Shown in pieces: positions 17,058 through 54,163 of a DNA stretch of 64,000 bases (the first letter of the stretch is position 1; every line of letters begins with the position of its first letter). The DNA lies in assembly GCA_964016885.1 (NCBI GenBank), contig OZ024746.1:86366001-86430000 (forward strand), read 5' to 3'. The notes beneath the pieces were generated by a model. It saw only the letters and a program-made list of their open reading frames with translations, was not told where the DNA came from and ran no database searches. Position numbers and translations under genes: made by a program. This DNA is from Eledone cirrhosa (lineage: Eukaryota).

Positions 17058-17283
17058 GAAATTAGAAATAGAAGCTTTCGCCGTATATTTTTGACTAAAG
17101 AAATATTACCCTTATAGTGGGGTTTAGAACCCTCTAAGAAATGGAAAAAGATTAGTTCCATTTTTTAGAGGGTTTTAAACCCCACTATCAGGATAAAATT
17201 TCTTTAGTAAAAAAAAAATACGGCGATAGCTTCTTTTTCTAATTTCAAACTAGTTCGCTGTTTCAAAACATACTTACTTGCCT
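17058..17283 (+). mobile_element. Foldback insertion (inverted arm + direct arm + ~34 nt tail) with a 12-bp target site duplication
   Basis: Imperfect ~90-bp inverted arms (about 17055-17146 / 17156-17249); ACACATCTATTT at 17046-17057 and 17284-17295. Confidence 0.7.
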
Positions 17284-18029
17284 ACACATCTATTTCTATA
17301 TGCGCTACAATTTATGTACATGTTATCTTTATCGCATATCGAAGTTTTTTTTTATATCTTGGTTGACATTTGATAATAACAGCTAAACTAATCACTACAA
17401 CTAAATTGACCAAATTGGCCAGAATTCAGAAATTCTTCCACTGCCCCTGTATATATTCCATCCAAAGTGGTTCCACGAAGTTTCCGCCAACCTAGTTTCA
17501 TTTAAAGAGCTTGGCTCAACCAGTGGCTATGATAAAGTCACCTTCCTAAAATGTCACGTGGGGGGATTGAATCCATGACCCCATGAGTGCCAAATGATCT
17601 CGTTTGATATTGACGAAAAATAGAGGAGGGAGTAATATTCACTCCGTTGTCAAGCGGTGAATATAGCTGAGCCGTTAAAGCGTCGGAGAGAATGAATGCC
17701 TCGTGATGATTGTTCCGGCTCTCTGCACTTTGAGCTCAAGACCCGCAAGTTCGTGTTTAATTTTCAAACCTTCGAAATCGATAAATAAAATTAATCAAAT
17801 GGTAGAACCCTTTACCCTCTCTCTTTCTCTCTCTGTCTCTCTCTGTGTCTGTCTCTCTCTCTCTCTCTATCTCTTACTCTCTTTCACTCTCTTTATCACT
17901 CTCTCTCTCTCTCTGAATAGGCTATATTAAAAGAGACAAGATAACCAATCCTTTCATCAACACTGTGAACTCACCCAGAACGAAAGAATTCCCACCGTGC
18001 ACTGAATGGTCTATTTATTCTATCAGTTT

Positions 18030-18356
18030 ACAGCAACAGCAGCAGTAGTAGTAGTAGCAACAGCAGTAGTAGTAGTAATAGCAGCAGTAGTAGTAATATT
18101 AGTAGTAGCAGCAGCAGTAGTAGTAGTAGAAGCAGCAGTAGTAGTAGCAGTAGTAGTAATAGCAGCATCAGTAGTAGTAGAAGTAGTAGTAGCAACAGCA
18201 GCAGTAGTAGTAGTAGTAGTGCTGGTGCTGCTCGTGGTAGTATTGGTGGTGGTGGTAGTAGTATTGGTGGTGGTAGTAGTAGTAGTGTTGATGGTGGTGA
18301 TAGTAGTAGTAGTAGTAGTAGTAGCAACAGCAGCTGCGATTGTTGTTGTTGTTGCT
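18030..18356. repeat. (GTA/GCA/GTG)n microsatellite
   Basis: Direct reading. Confidence 0.92.
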
Positions 18357-18420
18357 AATGTTTATTCATAGGTCAGCCTCTGACAGATTTTGAACGTAAA
18401 AGGGCAAAACTTAATATAAT

Positions 18421-18748
18421 TCTCTACCCTAATTCCAGCGAGGGTGAAGCGGGTTATTTTAAGAATGTCGCTATATCTATTCAGCACTATTAAATGATGT
18501 CAAAACTGTTATTGACAACTGCGTTTTCGCAGGGAAATTTAGATGCAGTTTCATCAAGAAGACCTTCTACTGTCTCTACCCTAATTCCAACGGAGGTGAT
18601 GCAGGTTATTTTAAGGACGTGGCAATATCTATGCATTACTCTTAACTGATGTCAAATGGTTATTAAAATTGACTAGAACAAACTGCCATTGACTCCTGTG
18701 GTGTCGCAGGAAAATTTAAATGCAGTTTATTAATAAAGCCTTCTGCTG
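18421..18748. repeat. Diverged tandem duplication, ~152-bp period
   Basis: TCTCTACCCTAATTCCA at 18421 and 18573, followed by matching TCGCAGG-AAATTTA-ATGCAGTTT segments. Confidence 0.75.
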
Positions 18749-19525
18749 AGGTTGTTATGGCAACTTCAACTCATGAACTATATCAGTCCTCATACCATGC
18801 GTTGCAGGAAATTTGCAGCATAGTGCTACTACTAACCGCCATATTAAGACTGTTGTTTTCTGAACAATATAATTTTCTGTTGGTTTTAACTTTATAGCAC
18901 TTCGGACTAAAACTGATGATATTGCAGACTACCACTTCTCATAAACATTTCAGACCTATTATTATGTAATATGGTTTCACATAGATATAAATGTGTAAAA
19001 TTTAAAGAGCCATCAAGAATACATATCTGGAAATTTTGCTCATCGCGCTAACATATATGACATCAATCCACAAGATTTTGATGCAGAAACCAAGAGACAA
19101 TTACTGACTAACTGAGAGATAGATTATTTTAATTGAAGAAGACTTTCAGGAGCTGTTTCTTTCACATACAGACTTATAGCGTTTAAGTTCTATCTGAACT
19201 CATCTATACAAGACACATTTGAAGGGACAGCGGTGATGGTTTAATTTATTGTGTTTTGACTTAAAGTTTCCAAACTTTGGAAAAGTAATTCAATGTCTGA
19301 CAAGGTTGGATATATAGTTGGCTTTGAAATCGGTCACGAAGCAGGAAGCTGATGTATAAATTCCTAAACACAAAACATTTTTTATTCGTAGTGTCGCGAC
19401 TCTTGATGTGGAGGCTGTCATTGCCTCGCTAAATGCTATTATCTAGAAAGGGTGTTTATCTACCTGTCTAAACACAACTATCTAGAATGGATGTTCACCT
19501 ATCCCTAAATGTCATTATATAGAAT

Positions 19526-20238
19526 GGGCGGTGGATTGGCAATATCGGTAGAGGGTCGGACGCCATGCTTTGCAGCAAAGAGTTACAGCCCTTTATGGTC
19601 TTAGTTAAAATCCCGCCGAGGTAACCTTGCCTTTCATCCTTAAGGGGTCGATAAAATAAAGCACCAGTAATGCATTCGGGTAATTGCTGGCCTTGTGCCA
19701 AAAGTAGAAACAATTATTAAGAATGAATGTTTGCTTCGCACCTTAAACGCTATTGTTTAAATGGATGCTTAAATGCAGGCTATCAAGAATCTACCATGCC
19801 ATCATAATTCTTTTTAGCGTTGGCACGACCAGAAATTTAGGTGAAGGAAAACGTCAATTATATCAATCTCAGAGTTCACCTGCTACTTTATTTTGTTGAT
19901 CCTGGAAGGATGAAAGGTAAAATTACACTCGGCGGGATTTGAACCCAGAACATAAAGAGACGTTATTGGCTGCTGCAAAGCATTCGGTCCGGTGCTCTAA
20001 CCATTCTGCCAACCCCCCACCTTTATCATACCATCATCATAATTTGTAGTATACGCACAAGAGGGAAAAGTCGATTTAATCAACCCCAATGCGTGACTGG
20101 TACTTTATTTTATCGATCCCGTGAGGATGAAAGGCAAAGTTAACCTCGGCGGGATTTGAACTCAGACCGCAAAGGGCCATAACTCTATGCTGAAAAGCAT
20201 GGTGTCTGACGCTATGCCAATACTGCCAATCCACCGCC
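19526..20238. mobile_element. Three SINE A copies (19526-19718 +, ~19820-20022 -, ~20050-20238 -)
   Basis: Same box, core and tail motifs as 1016-1958. Confidence 0.85.
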
Positions 20239-20690
20239 ATTATCATACCATCATAATGCAAACAAAACAGGAAGTATTTCATGAATCACACCAACTTTGG
20301 AAGCAATAGACGTGTCTGTCTTGATATAATAAAATATTTGGTAGTTCTAATAATGACTATGGATATCTCAAGTCAGGTATACTAGATATAGCAGCCAAAT
20401 GCTCCTCAACCCAAACACCACTGTCTTAAACAATGAACGACCTTTTGTTTTAGATAGGTTTTCAAAGATGGAGGTGACATGGCTGGAATGATTTAGATCA
20501 TAGGATTACTCAATGAAGGTAGGATGGGATTAAGCAACAACTGTGGAAATATGGAAGGTAAAGTTAACCACGGAGGAAGAATTTCAATCGAGGGAATGAA
20601 ACCACAAGCAAGACATCAACATCGTAAGACTAATGAGTTCAGACAAGGTTACAAATTTACGTAGAAAGGGGAATCAAATTGCATTATATT

Positions 20691-20974
20691 CATGTCTTTC
20701 TGGTAGTTATTTGTAACGTCAATGAAAATATGGTAGCTCATAGGAAATATAATTCTTGCTCTATGAAACTTATCAATTACATCATGTTTTTCTGGCAGTT
20801 ATTTGTGATATCAATGAAAATATGGTAGCTCATAGGAAATATAATTCTTGCTCTATAAAACTTACCAATTAGATCATGTCTTTCTGGCAGTTATTTGTGA
20901 TATCAATGAAAATATGGTAGCTCATAGGAAACATAATTTTAGCTCTATGAAACTTACCAATTACATCATGTCTT
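20691..20974. repeat. 92-bp tandem repeat, 3 copies
   Basis: Unit starts CATGT at 20691, 20783, 20875 and 20967. Confidence 0.9.
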
Positions 20975-21140
20975 AAAGAATCACTATATTGTAGTTGAAA
21001 TTGGAAGAAACTGGTTTCAGCAATATAAACAAAAGAAACATTCGCTAATTATAGATTGCTTCCACTCTTTACAGTAGGGAGTTATATCTATATACTTGGT
21101 GTATTCTTATTGCTACTATGCTGGGTCATCAACGGAAGTC

Positions 21141-21319
21141 ACAGACATGCCAACCACTAAAAAACCCAAACGGGGAACCCAAAACGGGGAGAAATGAGAC
21201 AAAACGGGGAGATAGAACATAATGAAAGCTATACCCATTTTCACAAGAAAACACATCTCTCACCCACCCCAAAGTGGGTGGGAGATCTCCCCGTCCGACG
21301 GGGAGAGTTGAGAGGTCTG
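21141..21319 (+). mobile_element. hAT-like MITE (CAGACCTGYCAAC TIR family)
   Basis: Homologous to 48366-48558, 55649-55823 and 59788-59983. Confidence 0.75.
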
Positions 21320-21945
21320 GAAGTAACGTATCTTAGTCTTGAACACATTGCAGCACTAGTTACGAAATATAAGCCAATGACCCTTCTGCTGCTCATATAA
21401 TTACACACCGTCGGGAATCAACCTGTAAGTGACTGAGTATACCCAACGTCACGTGTACTCTTAACGTTAATTCCTAGTGTAACATAATTGTTTCTACTTT
21501 GGGCACAAGGCCAGCAATTATCCCAGTGTATTACTGGTACTTTATTTTATCGACCCCGTAAGGATGAACGGCAAAGCTAACCTCGGCGGGATTTAAACTG
21601 AGAGTGCAGTGAAACGGAATAAATACCGAGTCATTTAATCTGATGTTCTAACACCTTTGCAAATACATGGTAAGTCATAAGTAACTGGGAAGTTCAACTT
21701 TTATATTCCAAATATTTACTAAAATTCTGGTCATATAGTACAAAATTATAAATACATCAAACAATTCCCTTTGTAACAATTCCCAATAAGTAGTTTAGAA
21801 AATATAATTAAAATAAACGTTCGAAAAGCTGACCCAGTTCCTCACACACAAATGAGGGATGTTCAAAAAGTTATGTGAACTTTGCAATAAAAATGCATTG
21901 ACTGCTCGATTAACTTATGATTCCCACTGTATTTGCCGCCTAGAC

Positions 21946-22264
21946 CAGAGGTATGCAACATATTCCATTGGTGGGCCACTTTTGAACATTGGAACAACTA
22001 TTAGGGTCAGTCACTGTCAAAAATATGTAATCTAATGAAAACCACAACTTCTTTCCATAACATGGAACTAGGAAATTATAATACACACAATCCTATCAGT
22101 GAAGTCCTTTAGCATAGGTCAATTAACATAAAATTGTATTACGGTTACGAAAAGAATTCTAAATAAGCCTAAAAGGTAAACATTAAAAACGGTCATCGCG
22201 GGCCACTCTGACTGGTCTGGCAGGCCAGATTGTGGCCCGCGGGCCACCTGTTGCATGCCCCTGC
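21946..22264 (+). mobile_element. hAT (Charlie-like) MITE; partial copy at ~47253-47370
   Basis: Termini CAGAGGTATGCAACA ... TGTTGCATGCCCCTG with subterminal GGCCCGCGGGCC. Confidence 0.7.
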
Positions 22265-24093
22265 TCCAGTAAAGTAGCACATCTTGTGACACAGCACGTC
22301 TCCCTCCCTCACCATCTTTCGGGGAAAAGCCTTCTCCATTCTGTCCGCCGATGCCACGGAGCAGCCAGCGTGTGGGCCCCCATTTATTTATAATAGTGAG
22401 AGATGGGGAGAGCAGGAGACAAGGAGGCAATGACAGTGGGGGTTTAGTTCTTTTCTGTTCGGATCTTGTGTATGAATATGAGTATATGTTTCACGACGCT
22501 CAAAGCTATAATGCTTTTTATCATAGACCTACTCAATTTTACATATTTTCACAACCACCATACGGCGCAGGAAATTATTTTGCCAATCTTTCCGAGTGGT
22601 GAGAAGCAAAGTCAACCTCGAACATATTTGACCATCAGAACATTAAGCTTATGCAACTAAATACAACAAATAGACCACCGCCTCTCCCGTTCGACCGTCT
22701 TATATAATGGTTAAACTAGATAAACAAGAGATAAAAATAATTTCAAGTTTGATAAATAGAAGATTTCAGTTCCAATACAATTGTTTACGTTTACAGCTCG
22801 CAAAATATTATAGGTCATCTTATCTCAAATCAAGTGTACTTTAATCAAATAACAGGCACACACACAAGTACACGTGCACACACATACACATATATGCAGA
22901 CATATACTTACGCCCACACACACATACATACAGCCATACATACATATATAATTATAAGCATTCGCATTTATTTTGACTATCCATACACCCACCTATATAA
23001 AACACTATACATACATACAATACATACACACGTTATTAATGGTGTAAGAGGTATTAATCTACAATAAAATAAAATGAAGGTTGGAATTTTAAGTGCAATA
23101 AAGAAATGTAGCAATCATCAGATCTTTATATATTATAACGTGGTCGCAGGATTGGTTGAGTGGTTAAGAAGCTCACTTCGTAATCATGAGATGTCGGGTT
23201 CGATCCTAGGGCGAGTGTTTTGGCATAGTAAATCATCGCGTTGACCCAAACTATATGAAAATCCGCATGTAGAATATGAACTTATCTAAATGCAATCCCA
23301 CCTTGGGCAGAAATATAGGGATCAGCAGAAGTCGTTATTGAAATCTCATCGCATTTTGTGTCACGCTAATTCGGTTTGGGTATTATGATAAGTGTACACG
23401 ACGTGTTTGTGGAATAATCAACCACTAATTCAGGAGTTAGCAGTTTAATTAAACGAACATCTGAATACTCATTGTCGAAATTGACGGAGGATTTATCGTA
23501 TATTATAGTTGTTAACAGTTAAGTTTTGTCGGGGATTGTGAAGTTTTAGCGATGTAGGATCTACTCCACTATCCGGTTTAGATTCCTCGCTGAAGATAAA
23601 TTAACGTCGAATACAAAAATAAATAAAAAAATTTTTTTAAAGATGGCAGAGGAATAATGTCACAGAAAGGCAGTCCCTCCTCCATCTACAAAAAAGTCAC
23701 TATTTATGTACCATAAAAAAAGATAATTTATTTAAAACTGCAAATTTATATCTATAAATATATAAGGAAAAATAAAAAAAAACAAAAAAACACTGAGAAC
23801 ACTAAAAATCTGGTTCAAACTATTTTTCTTCCAGAAAAGCATGCTGGTCGCCTGGCTTTGGTGCTTAGTGAGGCTTCTTAATATTCCGGGTGGGCATTTT
23901 AATTCGCAAAAAACATTATTTCAGTAGGGTTTTTATTAATTTTATTTTCTAAATCTGAGGGAGCATTATTGAAAAGTAGAGGGCAGTACTATCCAGTGTA
24001 AAGAAATATCGATATAATCCTCTGATCTGCTAGAAATAACAGCCACAAACCCCTCAAATCGCACTTCCCCTACTTAAATAAATGCTTATTAGA

Positions 24094-24266
24094 TAATTGT
24101 TTCTACTTTTGACACAAGGCCAGCAATTACCCAGTACATTACTGGTACTTTATTTTATCGACCCCCGTAAGGATGAAAGGCAAAGTTAACCTTGGCGGGA
24201 TTTGAACTCAGACCATAAAGGGCCGTAACTCTTTGCTGCAAAGCATGGCGTCCAACTCTCTACAAT
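24094..24266 (-). mobile_element. SINE A copy
   Basis: Family motifs. Confidence 0.88.
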
Positions 24267-24639: not shown

Positions 24640-24756
<117 letters not shown>

Positions 24757-25386: not shown

Positions 25387-25458
<72 letters not shown>

Positions 25459-25815: not shown

Positions 25816-25885
<70 letters not shown>

Positions 25886-25887
<2 letters not shown>

Positions 25888-26415
25888 CAAAGGAAATGTG
25901 GTAAGGAACCAGATGGACCATAACGCACCAGAGTACTCAATACTTAGGGTAGTAGAATGGGAAATAGGAAAAAGTATGACTCCGACGGCAGAGCTCAAGC
26001 CGTTTCCACGGCTATTTCTGACTAAATTAGAATTTTTAGCCTGGTGAATAAATACCCGAACTTGTCAAGGGGTACTTCCTTATATGGGAAGATTGTAGTT
26101 GTCAAGCGGATTGGTTAAAATTTGTTGTAAACACAAACAAGTCTATCATATCACTTTCAACGCTTGACCGCTCCACTCACTCCCCTATTGTTCTACAGGC
26201 AAGTTCAGCCACCCTACCTCCCACCAAATGCCATGATAGACTTATTTGTGTTTACAACAAATTCTAACCAATCCTCTTGACAACTACAATCTTCCCATAT
26301 AAGGAAGTACCCCCTTGACAAGTTCGGCTATTTATTCACCAGGCTAAAAATTCTAATTTAGTCCAGAAATAGCCGTGGAAAGGGCTTGAGCTCTGCCATC
26401 GGGGTCATACTTTTT

Positions 26416-26420
<5 letters not shown>
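25886..26420 (-). mobile_element. (TA)n-embedded foldback element, family F1 (tail 25886-25963; arms 25964-26149 / 26233-26420)
   Basis: ~186-bp inverted arms with about 9 differences; (TA)n on both sides; contains a TTGACAA..GAAA hammerhead variant. Confidence 0.8.
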
Positions 26421-26916: not shown

Positions 26917-26921
<5 letters not shown>

Positions 26922-27118
26922 AACGAGTAGGACCCCGACGGCTGAGCTCAAGCCGTTTCGACGGCTAATTCTGGACTATGTAGTCCAGAATTAGCCGTCG
27001 AAACGGCTTGAGCTCAGCCGTCGGGGTCCTACTCGTTCCTATTACCCACTCTACTACCCTAAGTATTGAGTACTTTGGTGCGTTATGGTCCACCTGGTTC
27101 CTTACCACATTTCCTTCG

Positions 27119-27120
<2 letters not shown>
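26917..27120 (+). mobile_element. (TA)n-embedded foldback element, second F1 copy (62-bp perfect arms 26917-26978 / 26981-27042, plus tail)
   Basis: Tail 27043-27120 is the reverse complement of 25886-25963 with few changes. Confidence 0.85.
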
Positions 27121-32889: not shown

Positions 32890-32927
<38 letters not shown>

Positions 32928-33026
32928 AAGTAATTCCATCGGAAAAGTCCAGGAAAAAAGAGTGCTCTATGTAAGCAACAGAGCTTAATTATTATTATTA
33001 TGTAATAAACAACATAAGGCAATTAT

Positions 33027-33084
33027 TCCATTTACCAGTGGTTTCTTAAAAGCAAAAGGTTTTGCTTTCAATCCTCAGAATGAA
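33027..33084 (-). ncRNA. Type I hammerhead motif (direct arm of F2)
   Basis: Exact reverse complement of 33133-33190. Confidence 0.85.
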
Positions 33085-33132
33085 AAATCCTGGTTTGTTT
33101 ATTGTCCATATTCAATAAACAAACCAGGATTT

Positions 33133-33190
33133 TTCATTCTGAGGATTGAAAGCAAAACCTTTTGCTTTTAAGAAACCACTGGTAAATGGA
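33133..33190 (+). ncRNA. Type I hammerhead motif (inverted arm of F2)
   Basis: ttcatt CTGAGGA ttgaaagcaaaa-cc-ttttgcttttaa GAAA ccactgg TA aatgga. Confidence 0.85.
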
Positions 33191-33220
33191 ATAATTGCCT
33201 TATGTTGTTTATTACATAAT

Positions 33221-33268
<48 letters not shown>

Positions 33269-35932: not shown

Positions 35933-36514
35933 ATAATTGTAACACAAGTCCAGGAATTTTAGGGGGGCGAAAAGTAGATTAAATAGACCCCAGTACTTGA
36001 CTGGTGCTGTATTTTATGAACCCAAGAAGGATTAACGGCAAAGTTCACCTCCGCGGGATTTAAACTTTGGAAGTAAAAAGTCGGAACAAAAGCTAACAGT
36101 TTGTCGGACGCCTTAACAGTACCAATTCACTGGTCTTATATATTTATATATAATAATTGTTTCTACTTTTGGCATAAGGCCAGCAATTATCCCAGTGCAT
36201 TACTGGTGCTTTATTTTATCGGCGCCGAAAGGATGAAAGGCAAATTTAACCTCGGCAGGATTTGAACTCAGATTGGAAAGGGCCGTAACTCTATGCATCA
36301 AAGCATGGCGTCCGACCCTCTACTGATACTAATATATAATTGTTTCTACTTTTGGCACAAGGCCAGCAAATTACCCAGTACATTACTGGTACTTTATTTT
36401 ATCGACCCCGTAAGGATGAAAGGCAAAGTTGACCTCGGCGGGATTTGAACTCAGAATGGAAAGGGCCGTAACTCTATGCGTCAACGCATGACGTCCGACC
36501 CTCTACCGATACTG
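35933..36514 (-). mobile_element. Three head-to-tail SINE A copies
   Basis: Family motifs at 35933-36135, 36153-36330 and 36338-36514. Confidence 0.85.
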
Positions 36515-38758: not shown

Positions 38759-38789
<31 letters not shown>

Positions 38790-38835
38790 TAAAGTTAAAT
38801 AAAAGTCAAATGATTAAAATTTAGCTTCGTTTATT

Positions 38836-38890
38836 ACTGCTATATATATTTCAGTGACAGCCATCTTTGGCTGTGACCTCTTCAGGCAGT
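38836..38890 (-). ncRNA. Type I hammerhead motif (inverted arm of F3)
   Basis: Reverse complement of 39117-39171. Confidence 0.85.
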
Positions 38891-39116
38891 TTGAATTAGT
38901 ATGGTATAGACAAGTACATATGTTGTTTAGGTGTATGATATTGTCAATACTCTGATATGCCCAGTTCCTTGTTGGGTTGTTAATTCACTGGGGAACTGGA
39001 GTCATATCCAGTTCCCCAGTGAATTAACAACCCAACAAGGAACTGGGCATATCAGAGTATTGACAATATCATACACCTAAACAACATATGTACTTGTCTA
39101 TACCATACTAATTCAA

Positions 39117-39171
39117 ACTGCCTGAAGAGGTCACAGCCAAAGATGGCTGTCACTGAAATATATATAGCAGT
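39117..39171 (+). ncRNA. Type I hammerhead motif (direct arm of F3)
   Basis: actgc CTGAAGA ggtcacagcca-aaga-tggctgtcact GAAA tatata TA gcagt. Confidence 0.87.
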
Positions 39172-39317
39172 AATAAACGAAGCTAAATTTTAATCATTTG
39201 ACTTTTATTTAACTTTATTTTACACTACTCCGGAGTAACCAAACCAACCTGCGCACTTCGTCGAGTGCTCCAGCCTGCATACTGAGGTGTTGGTATACAA
39301 CCAACATAAACTCAAAA

Positions 39318-39364
<47 letters not shown>

Positions 39365-39370
<6 letters not shown>

Positions 39371-39789
39371 GTTAAAAATGTACATCTACATATGCATACT
39401 GAAATACTAGTGTGTATATGAATACACACACGTATACATATGCAGATGTAACAAGTCTTTCACTTGATGAGTTGTAACAACAACGAAACTAGTTCAATAT
39501 TCCTTGTCTAGCTTTCTGGAGAATAGAGGGAAGGTGTTTCCTCGAAAACCAGTATGACTCTAAAAACCGGTTTGTCTGTGTGTTTACATACAGAATAGCT
39601 GGATACTCACAGTAAAGCAACCAGTGAAAGACTTGTTACATCTGCATATGTATACGTGTGTGTATTCATATACACACTAGTATTTCAGTATGCATATGTA
39701 GATGTACATTTTTAACTTAATTGTTTAAGCGTCAGTCATACAAAAGTGAGTTACAAACGAAACGAAATTTAATTTCGTTTCGTTATTTG

Positions 39790-39794
<5 letters not shown>
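39365..39794 (+). mobile_element. (TA)n-embedded foldback element, family F4 (100-bp arms 39365-39464 / 39623-39722, plus tail)
   Basis: Arms read directly; the spacer opens with a 5'-clipped hammerhead TGATGA gttg-taacaa-caac GAAA ctag TT. Confidence 0.82.
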
Positions 39795-43349: not shown

Positions 43350-45388
43350 GGGCGGTGGATTGGCAGTATCAGTAGAGCGTTGGACACCATGCTTTGCAGC
43401 ATAGAGTTACGGCCCTTTACGTTCTGAGTTCAAATCCTGCCGAGGTTAGCTTTTCCTTTCATCCTTACGGGGGTCGATAAAATAAAGCACTAGTAATGCA
43501 CTGGGGTCGATTTAATCAACTTTCCTCCTACCCCAAATTGCTGGCCTTGTCCCTAAAGTAGAAACAATTATTTTTTTGTCGTTTGAAGTTATTTTATGTA
43601 TGGATGGTTGATTGATTTAAAAGTTCCCTTTACAGTCAGAAGGACCTTGATTTAATCCACTACGTGGTACGTAGGGCATATGCCCTCCATTTCATAAACG
43701 GAAACAGTTGGATGGACTGTACCTTTAATTAAATTTATATCTACCGTTTATTTCACGATGTCAAATGTTTTGTCGTTCTGTTTGCGGTCTGGTTATGAAA
43801 GTTTGACACAAGAAATAAATTATTAATGTAAAGTATGAAAAGAGAATTTAAAAATTTGTGTTGTATGTCTGTCTGTGTGTGTATGTGTATATATATATAT
43901 GTGTGTGTGTGTGTACGTGTGCGGGGGTGAGTGTTTTTAATGGTTAAAAGGAGTTTTCCGCGATATAAATAATAGTTTCTTATATAGGTACAAGGCCAAC
44001 AATTTTGAGGGGAGGGGAAAGTCGATTAAATCAACCCCAGTGTGTGATTGGTACTTTATTTTATCGACCTCGTAAGGATAAAAGGCAAAGTTAACCTTGG
44101 TGGGATTTGAACTCAGATCATAAAGGAACGTAACTCTACGCTGCAAAGTATGGCGTCGAACCCTCTACCGATACTGCCAATCTATCGCGATATAATTAAT
44201 GCAATATATCTTTTGGCATTTAAATTCGTCTCCTTTGCGTCATAATTAAAATCCTGCTTGATAACATTTCGGGTGTCAAATTAACAAATCTCTAAGTTAG
44301 AAATCAATATATTTATAGTGATAATTAGTTCGGTAACTCACTGTTAGTTTCACTGAATTGGAACAACTATTTCAACGTCTCCATTGTTATATTTCGAAGC
44401 AACACTTTCTCCATTTTATCCGTTGGGACCACAAAACAGCTTGTGTCTGGGTTTCTGCACGCCAAAGAATATCCTCCCACACTGTCTGGGCTCCTATCCT
44501 TGGAGTAACGATGATCGAACATTCTTTCTGGCATTTGTTGTTGTATTTAGAATCACTATTGTTATTTTTTAGGGTAGCAATATCGGCAGAGCGTCAGGCG
44601 TCATGCTTTGCAGCATAGAGTTACGGCCCTTTATGTTTTGAGTTCAAATCCCGCGGAGGTTAGCTTTGCTTTTCATTCTTAAGGGGTCGATAAAATTAAG
44701 CACCAGTAATGCACTGGGGTAGATTTAATCGACTTTCCCTCCTCTTCAAATTGATGGCCTTGTGCCTAAAGTAGAAACAATTATTTAGGGGTCGATAAAA
44801 TAAAGTACCTGTCAAGTATTGAGCTCGATTTCATAGATTTTCTCCTCCCATAAATTACTGACCTTGTGCCTAAATAAATAAATCATTATTTACTTACGCA
44901 GGAAGTGCGGTGTCTTGGCAGTATCAGTAGAGAGTCAGACACCATGCTTTGGAGCATAGAGTTACAGCCCTTTACGGTCTGAGTTCAAATCCCGCCGAGG
45001 TGAACTTTGCCTTTCATCTTGACGGGGTCGTTAAAATAAAGCACCAGTAATGCACTGGGGTCGATTTAATCGACTTTCCCTCCTCTTCAAATTGATGGCC
45101 TTGTGCCTAAAGTAGAAACAATTATTTAGGGGTCGATAAAATAAATTACCAGTCAAGTATTGAGATCGATTTTATCGAACCCGCCCCCCTCAAATTGCTG
45201 ACCTTGTACCTAAATTAGAAATCATTATTTACTTTGCAGCATAGAGTTGTGGCCCTTTACATTCGTTCTGGGTTCAAAACCCGCCGAAGTTAACTTTGCC
45301 TTTCATCCTTACGGAGTCAATAAAATAAAGTACCAGTAATGCACTGGGGAAATTGCTGGCCTTGTGCCTAAAATAGGAATCATTATTT
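43350..45388. mobile_element. SINE A cluster (43350-43571 +; 43972-44185 - with CGCGATATAA TSD; tandem copies 44570-45388 +)
   Basis: Family motifs and TSD read directly. Confidence 0.85.
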
Positions 45389-45550
45389 GCCTACGTAGAA
45401 ATTATCTCATGTATAATTCAATAAGCTGTCACAGAGAAACTCTTTATATTTATAAATCATGCCGACCTAATAGTCATTAACTCCTCATTCAGTTCTATAA
45501 CTAATTAATAATTCACTAATTAATAACGCGTAATACCACGCGACATTGAA

Positions 45551-45915
45551 AAACACTATCAACACTACCAACAATAGCAGGAACACCAGAACCACCACCA
45601 ACAACAACAACAACAACACTAACACCACCACCACCAACAACAACACTATCACCACTACCAACAATAGCAGGAATACCAGAACCACCACCAACAACAACAA
45701 CAACAACACTAACACCACCAGCAACAACAACACCAACAACACTAACACCACCAGCAACAACAACACCACCAACACCAACACCAACACCACCAACAACAAC
45801 ACTAACACCACCACCAACAACACCACCAACAACACCACCAACAACACTAACACCACCACCAACAACACCACCAGCAACACCACCACCAACACCACCAACA
45901 CCACCACCATCACCA
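45551..45915. repeat. (AAC/ACC)n array
   Basis: Direct reading. Confidence 0.9.
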
Positions 45916-46547
45916 CGCGACTTCGACATCTTGTGGGATTAAAGCTGCCCTTTTGGTTTATGCTGAGATGCATCTATAATGCACCGTTCTGCGCTCCACT
46001 GCCTCAATAGCTTCTACCGGGACAGTTAAGTTGGCCCAGGTTTGCTCTTGCTTGATGAGCTTCCGTTACCAGCGGGTGTTATATAACATAACATAGTTTC
46101 TACTTTTGGCACAAGGCCAGCAATAATCCCAGTGTATTACTGGTACTTTATTTTATCGACCCCGTAAGGATGAAAGACAAAGTTAACCTCGGCGGGATTT
46201 GAACTCAGATCATAAAGGGACGTAACTCTATGACGTAACTCCTACTAATAATAATTGTTTCTATTTTAGGCACAAGGCGAGCAGTTTGAAGGGGAGGGGG
46301 AAATCGATTAAATCGATCCCAGTGCATTACTGGTGCTTTATTATAAAGTCCATCCTAGAGCGATAACCTCAATTGGATTTTTGTTTTTAGCTAAAGACGA
46401 AGCAGAAAGGATTGGATCATATCTGAAGTCAAATCATGAAAGTAATCGACGTGGTTTGATCTTATTGATCTCATCCTCAACAACAACAAGCGTTTTAAGG
46501 TTATTTTCCCTGCTAAAGCAGAAATGAGCTTTATGGGAATCAAGAAA

Positions 46548-46601
<54 letters not shown>

Positions 46602-47491
46602 ACACAAAACAACCTTCACAGAAAATATCTCAGTTTATATTTGTTCAATACCATAAAAAGAATTAATTTATTTTAAAAGAGTGTGAGCCTATATATATAA
46701 TATATATGTGTGTGTGTATGCGTGAATGTGTGTGTGCGTGTGTATATATATATATATATGAAAACACTTAAATTCCTGTGTAATCATTTTTCCTAAACCC
46801 AATTGGTAACTTGTGATTTAATTTCCGTTTTTCGCTTTGTGGACCACATGACAAGCTTTCTGACCATAGGGTTCTTTTTGAGACAATGTTTCACTGCCGG
46901 ATGCCCTTCCAGGGATCAACTCTTTAACTTGCCTTTTTTGAAAAAACAGGAATATAATCTACCTGTTCTAAACCGGATGGATACAAGGAGTTATTTGATC
47001 TTATTAACAAAACATATTCAACTGAAATAGCTTTCGTAGTGATCTATATAGAAATAGAAATGATGTAATGATGTTGATTATGAATCAATAATAGGAGTGA
47101 AGGGAAATACCCCAGGAAAATATTTCTGCGTACTAAATACAGATACACTAGGTTGACACGTCTGTAATGCAGTAGATGGAAAAACTTCGATTATCTGACA
47201 TCATCCATATAATTCTGAGACAAAACCACTAGATGTATTAAACAGTTATAACCAGGGGTGGGCAACATATTCCATTGGCGGGCCACTTTTGAACATTTTG
47301 AACATTAGGGCCATTAATATTTAATAAGCACTATTCCAAAGATTCACCACAACGTCTTTCCAAAACTTGGAACTAATGATGTCGCAACTCATTTCTACAG
47401 CTGAGTGAATTGGGTCAATGTAAAATAAAGTATCTTGCTCAAGGACACAACGCATCACCCGGTTGCAATACGTATGTTATCAAGAAAAATA

Positions 47492-47681
47492 ATTGTTTCT
47501 ATATTTGGCACAAGGCCAGCAATTATCCCAGCGCATTACTGGTACTTTATTTTATCGATCCCGTAAGGATGAAAGGCAAAGTTAACCTCGGCAGAATTTG
47601 AACTCAGACCGTAAAGGAACGTAACTCTGTGCTGCAAAGCATGGCGTCTGACCCTCTACTGATACTGCCAATCCACCGCCC
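47492..47681 (-). mobile_element. Full-length SINE A with TSD
   Basis: TTATCAAGAAAAATAAT on both sides (47477 and 47682). Confidence 0.92.
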
Positions 47682-48365
47682 TTATCAAGAAAAATAATAT
47701 TATAATTTCTGATAATTAAGTAAGGGAGGATTTTGTTAAAAAAATAAATCCAAAAATGTACAATTGACATATAAGTTAAATACACGAATCATTAAAATAA
47801 CATCGAACTGTCTATTTCGATATACTGAAGACATTTTTAACCTCTTCATATATGCGCTTTTAGGGGTGATATACCTCCCTCTCACATCTTTTTCTATGCA
47901 TCTGCCATAGAGAGCTATTTAAGTGACAATCCGCAGTGAGTTTTATAACAAATAAATGTAAAAGGGTTTCAAAATGATTATAGTATAATCACTTAGTTTT
48001 AGCAAGAAGCAAGCAATAGAAAATACAACATATGAAACAATGTAGCTGCTGTGGTAACAACGAGAATAGCCATGACTACTTTTCAACATAAAACATAAAA
48101 GTTGTTTTGTTGATGCAAGGGTATCAACGTAGTTCGATAGATTTGGACGACTCAGAAATAGCGCATCTACGGTTTTTCAGTAACAGGTATGCAGCTGACC
48201 TGCTAACCTCTAAAAATCCAAACGGAGAGTACTATGATAAAAAGTACCCCCAAATGGGGAGAAAAGACTAATTTTATATTACTCCAACACTTAACAGTAG
48301 GGAGTTATATCTATGTACCTGGTGTATTATTATTGCTAGTGCACTTTGTCATCAACGGATGGAAC

Positions 48366-48558
48366 AGACCTGCCAACCTCTAAAATCCCAAACAGAGAGT
48401 ACCATGAAAAAAGTACCCCAAAACGGGGTAAAATAAGGCAAAATGGGGAGATTTTACATAATGAAAGCTATTCCCATTTTCACAAGAGACGACATCTCTC
48501 ACCCACTTTGGAGTGGGTCGGAGATCTCCTCGTCGGACGGGAAGAGTTGACAGGTCTG
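48366..48558 (+). mobile_element. hAT-like MITE (CAGACCTGYCAAC family)
   Basis: CAGACCTGCCAAC ... GTTGACAGGTCTG. Confidence 0.82.
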
Positions 48559-48959
48559 ATGCAGTTTTTCAATAATACTCTCTGCATAGAAAATATAGTG
48601 CAAAAGCTTTTTGATAAGATTCTGAGGTAGGGAAGCTACTTGTAAAGTTACATCTTCTAACCATTTCTTTGATAGAGTTGCACAACATTTCCAACACTAC
48701 ATCAATCATATGGCTCCAAAATTACTGACTTGAGTAAAGTTTTCCAAATTCACTCTCTTTTCATATTAGCAACAATAGAAATCATTAATTATAACTACAT
48801 TCAATAATGTAAACATATCACACCACATAATAGAAAACGAATTATATACAATACATCGACAATTTTCATAATATACATACATGACATAATTCAGAAAGTA
48901 AACGGATGCATAATCATCCTTAGAAGCTCACAATGACAACAGTTAGGAATATAAAAAAT

Positions 48960-49175
48960 AATGGTTTCTTATATAGGCACAAGGCCAGCAATTTGGGGGG
49001 GGGGGGGAGAAAGTCGATTAAATCGACCCCAGTGCGTGACTGGTACTTTATTTTATCGACCCCGTAAGGATGAAAGGCAAAGTTAATCTCGGCGGGATTT
49101 GAACTCTGACCATAAAGGGCCGTAACTCTATACTGCAAAGCATGGCGTCCGACCCTCTACCGATACTGCCAATCC
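48960..49175 (-). mobile_element. SINE A copy (long form)
   Basis: Family motifs. Confidence 0.9.
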
Positions 49176-49191
49176 AAATAATAATATGTTA

Positions 49192-49564
49192 CAGTGATAC
49201 CTCGCAGTACGAGTTTAATTCGTTCCATGACCGAGTTCGTTTTACGATTTACTCGTTTTACAAATCAATTTCCTCATTGAAATTAATTAAAATATAGATA
49301 ATCCGTTCTAGCCCCCAAAAGTCCCCCAAAATCGTTTTTTATGGGTTTTAAAACAGAAAAGGTGCAGTTACAAGGAAAATGACAATCATAAAAACATAAT
49401 AAAAGAGAATGCAAAAGAAATATGTAACTTGGTTTTATTAATTGCATGAAACTCTCTCGTACTGCAGATTTCCACTCGTACCACAAGTCAAAAATGAGCA
49501 CGAACCTCGGCTCGTACAGCAAATTACTTGTACAATGGGGCACTCGTACTGTGAGGTTCTACTG
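49192..49564. mobile_element. Tigger/pogo-like (Tc1-mariner) MITE
   Basis: TA|CAGTGATACCTCGCAGTACGAGT ... ACTCGTACTGTGAGGTTCTACTG|TA. Confidence 0.85.
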
Positions 49565-49569
49565 TATTT

Positions 49570-50385
49570 GTATTTTTGTGAACAAGATTGACATGCGCAG
49601 TCGGGTTGGAAGTGGTACTACGACCGTCAAGTGTAGAATCAGTCGGCTAGAATTTACAGACGACATGGTATTACTTAACACGACAGAAGGTGATATCCGA
49701 CTTGCACTTGATAGGTTTGATGTCGTGTGCTGCATAGCTGGAATGAAAATCAGTGCTGCGGAACCTGTAACAATCGTCAGCGCAAGGAAACTTGCGCAGA
49801 GCACTCTACATGTGAATGGAGTTCCACTGAAGTAGGTGGAGAAGTTCAAGTATCTCGGGGCCGTGTTCACAAGTGATGGAAGGCAAGAGGTTGAATTAAA
49901 TGCAAGAATTGCAGGAGTTGATGCAGTAATGCGTCAGCTTCAGCATTTGGTATTCAGAAAAAGCGGGGTTGGTGTAAAAACCAAAGTCGCTATCTTCAAT
50001 TCGGTATTCGTGACCACCCTCATCTATGGTCATGAATTTTGGGTAATGACCGAATGAATACGATTGCGAAAACAAGCGGCCGAAATGGGGTTCCTCTGAA
50101 GGGTCATTTAAGTAATTTTACTCGATAGAGTGCGCAGCTCGGAGATCAAAGAGGCGCTCCAGGCAGAGCCGCTACTTCTCCGAATTGAAAGATCACAGCT
50201 CTTATATTATGTGCATGTGGTTAGAATGGCTCAAGAAAGAATTCCTGGAGAGGTTTTACTAGTAAAACCAGCCAGCTGGAGACCCAGGGGTAGATCCTGA
50301 GCAAGATGACTAGATAACATCTATGACCTTGGCTGGTCACGCTTGGGGATCCAACCGGATCAGGTGGAAACTGTGACAGGACTCG
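49570..50385 (+). pseudogene. RTE-clade LINE reverse transcriptase C-terminal fragment
   Basis: LEFTDDMVLL (FADD motif), GMKIS, EKFKYLGAVFTSDG, VTTLIYGHEFWVMTE; in-frame stops. Confidence 0.92.
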
Positions 50386-50769
50386 GTGATTATATATATA
50401 TAATCGGACCAAGGGAAAAATGTTTCCATTAGTCTTTCCATTGCTGATACTATCTACCGGTCGCAACTCCTGGCAGAAGGAGCAACGTGAAACAAAATGT
50501 GTCTTATTCAAGGACACAACGGATCACCCGTTCCGAGAATTGAACTCGCAACCTCAGGATTGCGAGTCCAACTCTCTAGCCACTACGCCACACATCTTCA
50601 GAATAGTAACAAAAGAGTAAAATTACATTGGATGTTGCTATATAGAATATTAGAACAATTCTTGGCAGAGAATCGTCCTTAAATCCAGAACACAGAATTG
50701 CTATTCTAGGCAGATAATAGAGCAATATAATATTGATGAATATGGAAAGAGAAACCAAATGAGGAGAAA

Positions 50770-51290
50770 AGTAGTGGAGGAGTAGGTTTTTCTGGCCAGA
50801 CAGAGGTCACTAAACAGCTGGAGCAACCACAAGGCATTTGTGATCGAATTATGCATTTGGGGGGTCCTGTGTCAGTTTCAGAACCGTCATTTCAGTGTAT
50901 GCCCCTGCCCTGGATAGTAGCCAAGAATTAATCATTGTCTTTTACCAAGATTTATGAGGATGTATAACATCGATTCCACATTTGGACAAGATCTTACAGC
51001 TTAGAGATTTCAATGCACGTATGTGAAAGGGCCACAATATCTAGAGTACTTTAGGTCATCATGACATGGTTTTCTTATTTTGCAACTATGCACTGAGTTT
51101 GAGTGGTCGTGTGCAATATTATCTTCCAGCAGAATGATATCCACAAAGCAATATGGAAACATCCGAGATCTATACAAAGTAACAAGGACATGTCTTGGAT
51201 TATATCATGATCAGAAAGAGAGACCTCCAGGATATTTGTTCCGTGAGAGTAATTCCTGGTGCAGAATGTGGTCAGACTAGTATTATTAGG
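50770..51290 (+). pseudogene. Decayed LINE apurinic endonuclease (APE) domain, RTE-like
   Basis: Ordered motifs across frames: GGVGF, DRIM, VISVYAP, FYQDL, DFNAR, WKHPRS, LDYI, GAEC. Confidence 0.8.
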
Positions 51291-51796
51291 CGTATAAATT
51301 ATAGTAATTCTTATAGTTGTTGTTATAAATAGAATCCTTTTAAATATACACATCGTGTTCTCATTGTTTATCTTAAATTGTAGATAACATCTTTCTCGTA
51401 AAATTTTCCATTGCTTATCTTATCATTGTTTCCCTCTATCATACTTTACAAAAGAGTAATCAAATAGGATTGTTTATTATTCCACAAATTTAACAACATC
51501 ATGTATTTTTATACATAGCCATCGATCCCATACTCCTGCAGAACCTCCTAGAGCAGGGCCCATGGAACGCTGTCATATCACTTTTCGTGGTCTACAAAGC
51601 AAGAAAACACCTGTTGGCAGTACTTCCACTATTTCTCAAGAAACCCTGCGCAGTGTAGTCTACATGAGAATGGAATTCCATATAGCAGACCTGGAAGGAA
51701 GTAATAACATCTAAAGGGTAACTCCACACAGCTCCTGAAACCCTGAACTGGAGCCGTGTCACTGGACGCTCGTATATATATATATATATATATATA

Positions 51797-52020
51797 TAAG
51801 AGTGGAAGTTAGTAAAATCGAAGTTACGGCGGTCGGCCAGCATCCACGAAAAAAACAATATTCGGAGCTTTGCACGAAGCAATCAATAAGAAGATATCGA
51901 TAAATCGATAAGTTACAGAGTAATACACATACGTTAAATGACGTGACAAATTGAAAACTGTGGTTAAGGGGACAAGCCACAGAAGCCACGACAAGAACGA
52001 AAATACAATCAGGATGTATA
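51797..52020 (-). mobile_element. (TA)n-abutting element 3' fragment, family F5; second copy ~54070-54438 (+)
   Basis: Shared TTCAATTTGTCA..TTTAACGTATG..TATTACTCT and terminal CTTCGATTTTACTAA.CTTC.ACT followed by (TA)n. Confidence 0.65.
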
Positions 52021-52044
52021 TAAGAGAGAGAGGGAGAGAGAGAG

Positions 52045-52084
<40 letters not shown>

Positions 52085-52232
52085 GGGGGGGAGGGGAGAG
52101 AGAAAGAGAAAGAGAGAGGAAGAGAGAAAGGGGAAGAGAGAGAAAGAGAGAGAAAGAGAGCGAGAGAGAGAGAGTCTGTGGTGTGGAGACCACAAATCAT
52201 GTGAGTGCTCGATATATGGGGAGATATAGAGT

Positions 52233-52281
<49 letters not shown>

Positions 52282-52286
<5 letters not shown>

Positions 52287-52402
52287 AATAAACAAGACAA
52301 TATAATTATGGAATAATTATATTGTGTTGTTTGTTAAATAGCTCTGTAGTATACATAGATAGAGCACTCTTCTTTCCTTTACCTTTTCTATGGAAATACT
52401 TA

Positions 52403-52403
<1 letters not shown>
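52282..52403 (+). mobile_element. Short F2 copy: ~24-bp inverted arm + direct arm + tail, between (TA)n and (CA)n
   Basis: TGGAATAATT..GTTGTTT..GCTCTGT..ATAGAGCACTCTT..TGGAAATACTT matches the reverse complement of 32925-33030. Confidence 0.75.
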
Positions 52404-52501
<98 letters not shown>

Positions 52502-52558
52502 AACTGTTTCAAGACCAATATGTTGGTCATGAAACATACTAGTGTGTCTCTGTGAGTA

Positions 52559-52630
<72 letters not shown>

Positions 52631-52739
52631 CAATGACCCCCCGCAGACAACTGATGAACGAAAATTTTCTCCCGTTCATGCTTTCCTCTTATTTGTAAGT
52701 ACACCTTATCCACCAACTACACAGCCCCTGTTTCTTCTT

Positions 52740-52807
<68 letters not shown>

Positions 52808-52941
52808 TAGAAGTTGTATTTAATTTGTTGGAAGTCCGACAAACATAAATGTTTATAACTGATTTAGAGCACTCAACAAGTTACTGGAGTAAATATTCAA
52901 TGATATTAAATAAATGGAAACTATATTTATAAAACCATATT

Positions 52942-53005
52942 TATTTTATTATATATATTTCTAGGGTACCAAGACAACATTGGTGTGCTTTCATCAGATA
53001 AAATA
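52942..53005 (-). ncRNA. Type I hammerhead motif (direct arm of F6)
   Basis: Minus strand: tattttat CTGATGA aagcacaccaa..ttggtacccta GAAA tatata TA ataaaata; base of stem II eroded. Confidence 0.75.
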
Positions 53006-53121
53006 CAAAGTTTGTTTTATAAATAGAGACATACCCATGAAAATCATACCTTAACGGTTGGAAATTCACTGGATAGTCACTGATTTTCATGGGTACATCT
53101 CTATTTATAAAACAAACTTTG

Positions 53122-53185
53122 TATTTTATCTGATGAAAGCGTACCAATGTGTCTTGGTTGCCCTTGAAATATATATAATAAAATA
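53122..53185 (+). ncRNA. Type I hammerhead motif (inverted arm of F6)
   Basis: tattttat CTGATGA aagcgtaccaa-tgtgtc-ttggttgccctt GAAA tatata TA ataaaata. Confidence 0.82.
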
Positions 53186-53538
53186 AATATGGTTTTATAA
53201 ATATAGTTTCCATTTATTTAATATCATTGTATATATATATATATATATTTTAAAAAAATTTCGCTCTACATGGCTGAATACAATAAAGGTAATCTGAGTT
53301 TTTCGAATTTTAATAATAACATTCGATTCGTTTTGCATAATTGCAAACGAATCGAATGATATTATGAATATTCGAAAAACTCAGATTAAAACGAATCGAA
53401 TGTTATTATTAATATTCGAAAAACTCAGACTACCTTTATTGTATTCAGTCATGTAGAGCGGGCATTTTTTTATTTTTATTATTTGAATGTGGCAAAGCCG
53501 GCCATTTATCGCTCGTATACAGGAAACTGACTGGCCAG

Positions 53539-53820
53539 TCTGCTGATATGTAAGTCTGGCTGATCAGTGGATCTGCTGATATGTAAGTCTGGCTGATCAG
53601 TGGATCTGCTGATATGTAAGTCTGGCTGATCAGTGGATCTGCTGATATGTAAGTCTGGCTGATCAGTGGATCTGCTGATATGTAAGTCTGGCTGATCAGT
53701 GGATCTGCTGATATGTAAGTCTGGCTGATCAGTGGATCTGCTGATATGTAAGTCTGGCTGATCAGTGGATCTGCTAATATGCAGATCTGACTGATGAGCC
53801 AGTCTGCTAATATGCAAATC
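53539..53820. repeat. 33-bp minisatellite: 7 perfect copies plus ~1.5 diverged
   Basis: TCTGCTGATATGTAAGTCTGGCTGATCAGTGGA. Confidence 0.95.
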
Positions 53821-53894
53821 AAACCGATCAGTCACTGTATACTTTAGAAAATAGTATATATTTTCACTAGCTTTGACAGTTTGGCAGGTGAACA

Positions 53895-53948
53895 GTGAGC
53901 TGTACTGATGAAGGGTGATACCCAGAAACATTAATGCCTGCAGTTCAC
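53895..53948 (+). ncRNA. Type I hammerhead motif, probably inactivated (U16.1C)
   Basis: gtgagctgta CTGATGA a gggt-gat-accc a GAAA cattaatg CC tgcagttcac; 10-bp stem I, palindromic stem III. Confidence 0.78.
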
Positions 53949-54163
53949 AAGAGCAAGAATGAAGGGTTCATTCTACTAACATGGCTATAAAATTGAGGCT
54001 TGTTTGCATAATTGCAAACGAATCGAATGTTATTATTAATATTCGAAAAACTCAGATTATATTTATATATAGTTCTTTCGTTGCTTTGCTAGTGTATGGT
54101 TGGGTTTGGCCTACCGCAATGTTCAATTTGTCAAGCTATTTAAACGTATGCTATTACTCTAAG

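What the first reader, a model, noticed from the sequence alone, without database searches (positions are those of the whole stretch)
17058..54059. Nine foldback insertions share one rule: 5' inverted arm + direct arm + unpaired 3' tail
Seen at 17058, 25886, 26917, 32925, 38785, 39365, 52282, 52805 and 53262 (the last has a longer, more complex 3' part). These are not symmetric MITEs: one side always has 35-100 nt extra. Wherever a hammerhead gives the orientation, the extra tail is at the 3' end. Arm lengths vary (24-216 bp), as expected for variable 5' truncation. Established: Penelope insertions often have inverted pseudo-LTRs and a 3' tail. Inference: either cDNA folds back and copies itself, or two RNAs are reverse-transcribed from opposite strands of a self-complementary (TA)n target. 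This differs from L1 twin priming because the arms duplicate the same sequence.
Basis: partly seen in the sequence, partly recalled or inferred. Interest (0 to 1): 0.8.

Follow-up and report, generated by a model that had tools for sequence, protein, structure and literature searches.

The report
Twin-primed Penelope retrotransposon insertions
These nine hairpins are broken copies of Penelope-type jumping genes and their short passengers, each made of two head-to-head halves that almost always end at two different fixed points, likely because the element copies its RNA twice, once into each cut DNA strand, which would explain a long-known but unexplained shape.

Summary
All nine structures are real. 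They are 5'-truncated insertions of Penelope-like elements (PLEs). E2/E3 and E4 trace to Hydra-clade RT plus GIY-YIG genes. E6 and E9 are tandem hammerhead retrozymes, and E1 is a tRNA-headed unit. An inverted copy plus a tail is a known PLE trait, so the shape is not new. New here is the count. Each insertion is two head-to-head copies with both 3' ends outward, and almost always one ends at site 1 (no tail) and the other at site 2 (tail): 50 of 52 in family A, 9 of 9 (E4), 10 of 10 (E6), 8 of 9 (E9). The tailless arm is often the longer one, and some pairs share no sequence. This rules out fold-back of the tailed cDNA as the general route. The best reading is twin target-primed reverse transcription: both nicked strands prime, at two fixed RNA starts, probably on one RNA, and the two cDNAs are end-joined. 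A covarying RCTC...GAGY stem lies between the two starts in 17 of 35 families. Known architecture; useful, testable evidence on how it forms.

The parts
17046..17057 (.). E1 left copy of 12-bp target-site duplication (right copy 17284-17295)
17058..17146 (-). E1 tailless arm (ends at site 1); family is a ~260-nt tandem unit with a tRNA-like head
17158..17283 (+). E1 tailed copy; tail 17247-17283
25887..26150 (-). E2 tailed copy of Hydra family A (5' end about -184); tail 25887-25966
26151..26417 (+). E2 tailless copy including the 83-nt spacer (5' end about -271 to -278): the longer arm
26920..26978 (-). E3 tailless arm, short subfamily of family A
26981..27119 (+). E3 tailed copy; tail 27040-27119 with ACTC...GAGT stem
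32926..33104 (-). E4 tailed copy of a young 4289-bp Hydra PLE; hammerhead 33078-33033; tail 32926-32992 with GCTC...GAGC stem
33105..33224 (+). E4 tailless copy (8 nt longer than the tailed arm); hammerhead 33139-33184
38785..39000 (-). E5 tailless arm; hammerhead 38885-38841
39007..39319 (+). E5 tailed copy; hammerhead 39122-39166; tail from 39223
39365..39464 (-). E6 tailless arm of a 466-nt tandem retrozyme
39465..39793 (+). E6 tailed copy, cut inside the hammerhead core; tail from 39723
52286..52309 (-). E7 tailless arm (relative of the E4 family, about 69% alike)
52313..52403 (+). E7 tailed copy; tail 52337-52403 with GCTC...GAGC stem; abuts (AC)n
52806..53048 (-). E8 tailed copy; tail 52806-52899 with ACTC...GAGT stem
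53076..53237 (+). E8 tailless arm; hammerhead 53130-53177
53251..53348 (-). E9 short tailed copy; tail 53251-53292
53332..54059 (+). E9 long tailless copy, more than one unit of a ~440-nt tandem retrozyme; 33-bp array 53539-53795; hammerhead core at 53905

Best explanation
Each structure is one insertion of a Penelope-like element (Hydra clade) or a passenger RNA, made of two 5'-truncated copies joined head to head, one ending at site 1 and one at site 2, and likely formed by twin target-primed reverse transcription. Inferred steps: (1) the GIY-YIG endonuclease nicks both strands of an AT-rich or (TA)n target about 10-13 bp apart; (2) one nick primes reverse transcription at site 1 of the RNA and the other at site 2, so the tail is simply the RNA between the two starts; (3) both cDNAs probably come from the same RNA, held at a conserved stem between the starts, the site-2 enzyme displacing the first cDNA when it reads past site 1; (4) each cDNA stops on its own, and the two are joined bluntly, by 1-5 nt of microhomology, or through a short insert, then filled in. 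Shown: anatomy, family identity, two fixed ends, one-of-each pairing, either arm longer, non-overlapping pairs, target duplications. Inferred: nicking, priming, one RNA, displacement, a dimer, any role of the stem.
For: Pairing: family A 84 of 86 complete insertions are one tailed plus one tailless. Without the 33 from loci fetched with the whole E3 as query it is 51 of 53, and 50 of 52 after dropping one duplicated locus (p 6e-13 against a free choice of ends). E4 family 9 of 9, E6 family 10 of 10 (read by eye), E9 family 8 of 9 (read by eye); these sets include the window's own copy. Either arm can be longer: tailless longer 27, tailed longer 12 in family A; 5 and 12 of 22 across families in the spacer test. 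Pairs sharing 20 nt or less: 6 rows, 5 events in family A, 3 in the E5 family, and partners of only about 11-20 nt beside apparent solos. One source: same variant in both arms 28 against 7.1 expected; arms ending within 15 nt of each other 9 of 53 against 2.7 by permutation. Junctions differ between copies even where arm length is fixed. Target duplications of 10-13 bp in four E1-family copies at non-TA sites. The sequence just 3' of site 1 matches the (TA)n flank by 3 nt or more in 21 of 30 families, against a null of about 10%. In vitro, a Poseidon-clade PLE cuts and extends both strands and starts at two sites that bound the tail (Frangieh 2024, PMC11167929).
Against: All evidence is from inserted copies; no enzyme was tested. 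Solo copies exist: 10 of 15 apparent family-A solos show no partner, and about half of the 30 E1-family loci show no inverted arm. Same-type pairs occur: 2 of 86; 3 tail/tail and 1 tailless/tailless among 35 resolved, two of them tandem read-through; 12 of 81 segments are symmetric. Short true snap-backs are seen at some junctions (L074, L091, L126, L257, L309). Shared variants could also come from one source locus or from arm-to-arm conversion. The equal-end excess is carried by the E4 set (6 of 9), two rows of which were found as palindromes; family A alone shows none (2 of 34, p 0.17). Frangieh 2024 saw no difference in start site between strands and no homology to the target, which does not predict one-of-each pairing.
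Confidence: 0.7

Rival explanations
1. Twin priming on both strands, but from two separate RNA molecules, with an asymmetric enzyme complex fixing one start per strand.
For: Either arm can be longer and arms overlap by up to kilobases without needing displacement. Most long pairs end at unrelated points (32 of 34).
Against: Both arms share variants four times more often than expected, and near-equal ends are in excess. Needs an extra rule to give one-of-each ends.
Confidence: 0.25
2. The first cDNA folds back and copies itself, or an antisense RNA primes on itself and the endonuclease trims one end to leave the tail (Arkhipova 2013; Craig 2021).
For: Gives arms from one source, near-equal arms, and the short snap-backs seen at some junctions. 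Proposed in print (PMC3846280; PMC8557442).
Against: A folded-back tailed cDNA cannot yield a copy longer than itself, yet the tailless arm is longer in 27 of 39, including E2, E4 and E9. A tailless cDNA has no template for the tail. Non-overlapping pairs have nothing copied twice. The antisense version needs trimming at exactly site 1 on either arm.
Confidence: 0.1
3. The whole hairpin plus tail is a fixed MITE- or SINE-like unit copied from earlier palindromic copies.
For: At least 40 copies match E3 over its full 201 nt at 96-100% (the 40 best of 1068 candidates, so biased to that shape).
Against: The junction letters differ among the 30 fetched copies. Long families break at different points in every copy. 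One-arm variants are not significantly shared by arm: 63 against 47, and 10 against 4.
Confidence: 0.05
4. Long-read fold-back or assembly artefacts.
For: E3-E6 arms are 100% identical. No listed short-read piece bridged the E5 or E6 junction itself.
Against: E1, E2, E7, E8 and E9 arms differ by 5-12%. Ends fall at family-fixed sites, with target duplications. Joints crossing the palindrome centre at other points appear in short-read contigs (X1) and in raw reads of two other samples (X22, X23).
Confidence: 0.02

Closest known systems
Hydra clade of Penelope-like elements (Craig et al. 2021, PMC8557442)
   Same: C-terminal GIY-YIG, RW[K/R], DKT, CxCX5C linker, CxxC and CxH, type I hammerhead near the 3' end, (TA)n target, inverted truncated copy, tail at one end.
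   Different: Tails here are 37-98 nt (26-174 in the wider sample) against the 30-40 nt quoted for PLEs. The full E4 unit is 4289 bp against under 3 kb. In the passages read, the tail is ascribed to endonuclease resolution, and no one-of-each rule or tail stem is stated.
PAc Poseidon element in vitro (Frangieh et al. 2024, PMC11167929)
   Same: Both strands cut and extended; two start sites bound the tail; AT-rich target; dimer predicted.
   Different: Different clade. No strand difference in start site, no homology to target, and no account of the inverted copy or its junction in the main text read.
L1 twin priming (Ostertag and Kazazian 2001; recalled, paper not held)
   Same: Both nicks prime, cDNAs are joined head to head; the non-overlapping pairs here have this layout.
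   Different: In L1 the second primer anneals at variable internal places and the halves do not overlap. Here both starts are fixed and the halves usually overlap.
Non-LTR retrozymes (Cervera and de la Pena 2020, PMC7229834; Li et al. 2026, bioRxiv 10.64898/2026.07.22.740005)
   Same: E6 (466 nt) and E9 (~440 nt) are tandem units with a type I hammerhead and no ORF.
   Different: Here they show PLE insertion marks directly (two fixed ends, inverted partner, (TA)n), which the parts read infer only from distribution and pLTR likeness.
MITEs in (TA)n
   Same: Short, high copy, inverted repeats, TA flanks.
   Different: Asymmetric, variable centre, continue into RT genes, carry ribozymes; not terminal inverted repeats.

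Membership tests
PLE, Hydra clade | Single ORF, RT followed by C-terminal GIY-YIG | tested here: met
   Family A (L101, L184, L189, L190) and E4 family (L321) by motif reading. Pfam gave no hit on six of these proteins; atlas neighbours carry RVT_1 in 12-17% of members.
PLE, Hydra clade | RWK motif, DKT instead of DKG | tested here: met
   RWR and DKT in family A; RWK and DKT in the E4 family (read from the translation).
PLE, Hydra clade | CxCX5C linker, no CCHH, CxxC and CxH around the nuclease E/N | tested here: met
   L190 and L056, L321; absence of CCHH read by eye.
PLE, Hydra clade | Placement in the RT tree with named Hydra elements | not tested
   Published sequences were only read beside mine.
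PLE, Hydra clade | Type I hammerhead near the 3' end | tested here: inconclusive
   Met for E4, E5, E8 (33 motifs in 464 kb, 0 in the reversed control). Not found in family A, E1 or E7.
PLE, Hydra clade | Partial tandem (pLTR), inverted copy, optional tail, (TA)n target | tested here: met
   L321 tandem with tail equal to the start of the next unit.
PLE, Hydra clade | Link to an autonomous ORF for E1, E5, E7, E8, E9 | tested here: inconclusive
   E8: ORF hits 0.3-1.4 kb upstream in three copies. E7 resembles E4. None for E1 or E5 or in 20 E9 loci. The shared tail stem links E5, E7 and E8.
Non-LTR retrozyme | Tandem non-coding unit with a type I hammerhead in each unit | tested here: met
   E6: 464-467-nt period. 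E9: about 440 nt. Hammerheads read by eye.
Non-LTR retrozyme | Self-cleavage and circular RNA | not testable with these tools
   No RNA holder listed.
L1-type twin priming | Halves do not overlap; second primer internal and variable | tested here: not met
   Most halves overlap and both starts are fixed. It works like twin priming but is not the L1 case.
MITE | Symmetric terminal inverted repeats, fixed interior | tested here: not met

The most novel reading that the evidence does not exclude
Twin priming is the normal integration route of Hydra PLEs: one complex grips a conserved RCTC...GAGY stem, starts one reverse transcriptase on each side of it from opposite nicked strands, and copies the same RNA twice, so tail, inverted copy and target duplication all come from one reaction that also moves retrozymes and a tRNA-headed passenger.
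Probability: 0.4. Interest if true: 0.75.

Novelty: new member of a known kind. Interest (0 to 1): 0.5.

Why it matters
How PLEs, the sister group of telomerase, make their inverted copies and tails is an open question; Craig 2021 names it as such. The one-of-each rule, the longer tailless arms and the tail stem give specific predictions that an existing in vitro system (Frangieh 2024) can test. A retroelement that primes both strands by design would differ from LINEs, where this is an accident. The structures are also common: 69 in the 864 kb sampled, which extrapolates to roughly 200,000 in the genome (rough, the sample is mostly one region). They can be mis-annotated as MITEs, SINEs or microRNA hairpins.

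Tried and rejected
Rfam: only sub-threshold microRNA-type hits on the hairpins, no hammerhead. Pfam on six PLE proteins: no hit; on 25 aligned members, RVT_1 and GIY-YIG in one member each. PDB profile search: nothing. Four genome searches came back empty, probably because the words are too common (E5 three times, E3 tail once), so E5 rests on bystander copies. One search took the downstream side for many of its 20 stretches; the upstream side was fetched later for 20 loci. No RNA holder listed. Reads did not bridge the E5 or E6 junction of this locus. Complex prediction for a dimer was not available, so the dimer is untested. My first guess of Neptune clade was dropped for Hydra. 'No blunt joins' (0 of 45) is not kept: the reference was about 5% diverged, and the young E4 family shows 3 blunt, 4 microhomology and 4 insert joins of 11. 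A general bias towards a longer tailless arm is not kept: the multi-family test leaned the other way. Clustering of tailed 5' ends at site 1, expected if the second enzyme were blocked there, was not evident by inspection and was not tested formally. Earlier-findings look-ups returned nothing.
Full report
Observation. The nine structures (E1-E9, left to right) are at the stated places, with arms of 24-216 bp and tails of 37-98 nt. They are common here. In 864 kb (464 kb around the window and eight 50-kb stretches elsewhere, two of which held no suitable segment), 81 of 574 (TA)n-bounded segments have inverted ends, 69 asymmetric and 12 symmetric. A reversed-sequence control gave 2 against 92 of 628. 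E1 lies outside (TA)n with a 12-bp duplication, E7 ends on (AC)n, and the tail of E9 is on the left.

What the families are. E2 and E3 belong to one family (A). [quoted passage not shown] E4 is the 3' end of a young 4289-bp Hydra element, found as a partial tandem in which the tail is the start of the next unit. E6 and E9 come from tandem hammerhead units of 466 and about 440 nt, that is retrozymes; one E6 copy is joined to Hydra RT sequence. E1 comes from a ~260-nt tandem unit whose head ARAGORN calls tRNA-Ser(GGA) in 3 of the 7 loci given to it. E5, E7 and E8 are tied in by hammerheads, the tail stem and the same end pattern; no autonomous partner was found for E5. The genome is about 3.0 Gb; the repeats look like those of an octopus, which is recalled and was not tested.

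Reframing the rule. Hammerheads read outward in 17 of 18 cases inside palindromes, so each insertion is two copies joined at their truncated 5' ends, with both 3' ends outward. In each family the 3' ends fall at two places: site 1 (no tail) and site 2 (tail). The informative question is how the ends pair. Family A: 84 of 86 complete insertions have one of each; 51 of 53 without the 33 from loci fetched with the whole of E3; 50 of 52 after dropping one duplicated locus. E4 family: 9 of 9 among the 25 sequences examined. E6 family: 10 of 10 among 25 loci. E9 family: 8 of 9 among 20 loci. The remaining loci were solo, cut by the locus end, interrupted or repeats of the same insertion. Bystander copies of six families gave 31 mixed, 4 same-type and 10 unresolved, with the window's own copies and a few double counts included. 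The genome searches return only the 40 best-scoring candidates, so these samples favour close relatives of the query.

Testing fold-back. A cDNA that folds back can only copy what it already holds, so the tailless arm could never be the longer one. It is longer in 27 of 39 unequal family-A insertions, in E2, E4 and E9 themselves, in 5 of 9 unequal E6-family pairs, and in 5 of 17 resolved spacers across families. Some pairs share almost nothing: a tail-only piece faces a long tailless arm, and partners of 11-20 nt sit beside apparent solos (5 of 15 by eye). These need two separate starts. Short snap-backs do occur at a few junctions, so fold-back is a side reaction.

One RNA or two. The two arms of an insertion carry the same minority variant 28 times against 7.1 expected, and are closer to each other than the mean of other copies in 70 of 74 cases. 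Arms end within 15 nt of each other in 9 of 53 against 2.7 by permutation, one pair at about 2.5 kb; this rests on the E4 set. One source locus or later conversion would give similar signs, so this step stays inferred. Copying of a ready-made hairpin is unlikely, because junctions differ even where arm lengths are fixed and one-arm variants are not inherited by arm.

Ends and junctions. Target duplications of 10-13 bp occur in four E1-family copies at non-TA sites, as expected from staggered nicks. The sequence just 3' of site 1 matches the (TA)n flank by 3 nt or more in 21 of 30 families, which suggests pairing of primer and RNA. Joins are blunt, microhomology-based or bridged by short inserts: 3, 4 and 4 of 11 in the young family.

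A conserved stem in the tail. In 17 of 35 tail families, RCTC lies within 26 nt of site 1 and GAGY follows, against 0.96 expected by shuffling and 2 on the antisense strand. The outer pair covaries: A-T 9, G-C 6, A-C 2, G-T 0. The motif was picked after looking at the data, and families are related, so the p of 0.002 is soft. The same motif is visible at the 3' ends of two published Hydra sequences, from a coral and a sea cucumber by their order in the file (Craig supplement). Simple folding supports the stem in E4 and E7 but not in E2, E3, E5 or E8. Its role as the protein's binding site is a guess.

Artefact check. Diverged arms, fixed ends and target duplications argue against read fold-back. 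Joints across the palindrome centre at other positions appear in short-read contigs of X1, which may be the assembly's own sample, and in raw reads of two other samples, X22 and X23 (8 and 16 reads for one joint). This supports the family, not this locus; no listed piece bridged the E5 or E6 junction.

Comparison with print. The architecture is known. Arkhipova 2013 (first fifth of the text, passages and Discussion read) describes inverted pLTRs with an optional tail and proposes self-priming on an antisense template. Craig 2021 (passages, section 11, supplement searches) ascribes the tail to endonuclease resolution. Frangieh 2024 (main text to the start of Methods) shows both strands extended and two starts bounding the tail. 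Li 2026 (three of five parts), Cervera 2020 (passages), Goubert 2022 (passages) and PMC13282606 (passages) add context. L1 twin priming is recalled; the paper was not held. Eight searches listed no paper whose title or abstract start states one-of-each pairing, twin priming for PLEs, the tail stem or a tRNA-headed PLE passenger. The library lacks most subscription papers, among them Arkhipova 2006 and Evgen'ev and Arkhipova 2005, which I did not see.

Verdict. Real, and a known PLE shape in new families, so not a new kind of element. The value lies in turning an open mechanistic question into counts and direct tests. Interest 0.5.

Noticed in passing
L056:6400-10000 and L057:1-2500 (about 140 kb left of the window): A ~6-kb head-to-head palindrome, 98-99.5% between arms, each arm holding an open 816-837-codon Hydra ORF, joined at the ORF start.
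   Followed up: partly
E1 family, L158, L170, L171, L178: Tandem ~260-nt unit with a tRNA-like head (called Ser-GGA) that shows PLE insertion marks; 27 of 55 copies break at the 3' end of the tRNA-like part. A possible SINE-like passenger of PLEs.
   Followed up: partly
L259:902-1300: Hydra RT sequence joined directly to the 466-nt retrozyme unit: template switch or deleted autonomous partner.
   Followed up: partly
L321: Young full-length 4289-bp Hydra element in partial tandem, with one frameshift; many 100% identical 3' ends on C1.
   Followed up: partly
window 5528-5582 (+), 24407-24380 (-), 26797-26737 (-): Further type I hammerhead motifs outside the nine elements, probably solo or older PLE ends.
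   Followed up: no
window 7382-16502: 9-kb tandem array of a 55-bp unit, about 166 copies.
   Followed up: no
window 36148-36513, 43350-47700, 55350-56520, 61570-63810: Many copies of a common SINE-like repeat in both orientations, some in tandem.
   Followed up: no
window 39756-39784: A perfect 14-bp hairpin inside the E6 tail, just before site 2.
   Followed up: no
window 6992-7152 and 52469-52571: Degenerate palindromes built largely of simple repeats.
   Followed up: no
L201-L240: Density is uneven: two of eight 50-kb stretches had no (TA)n-bounded segment, others held 1-9 structures.
   Followed up: no
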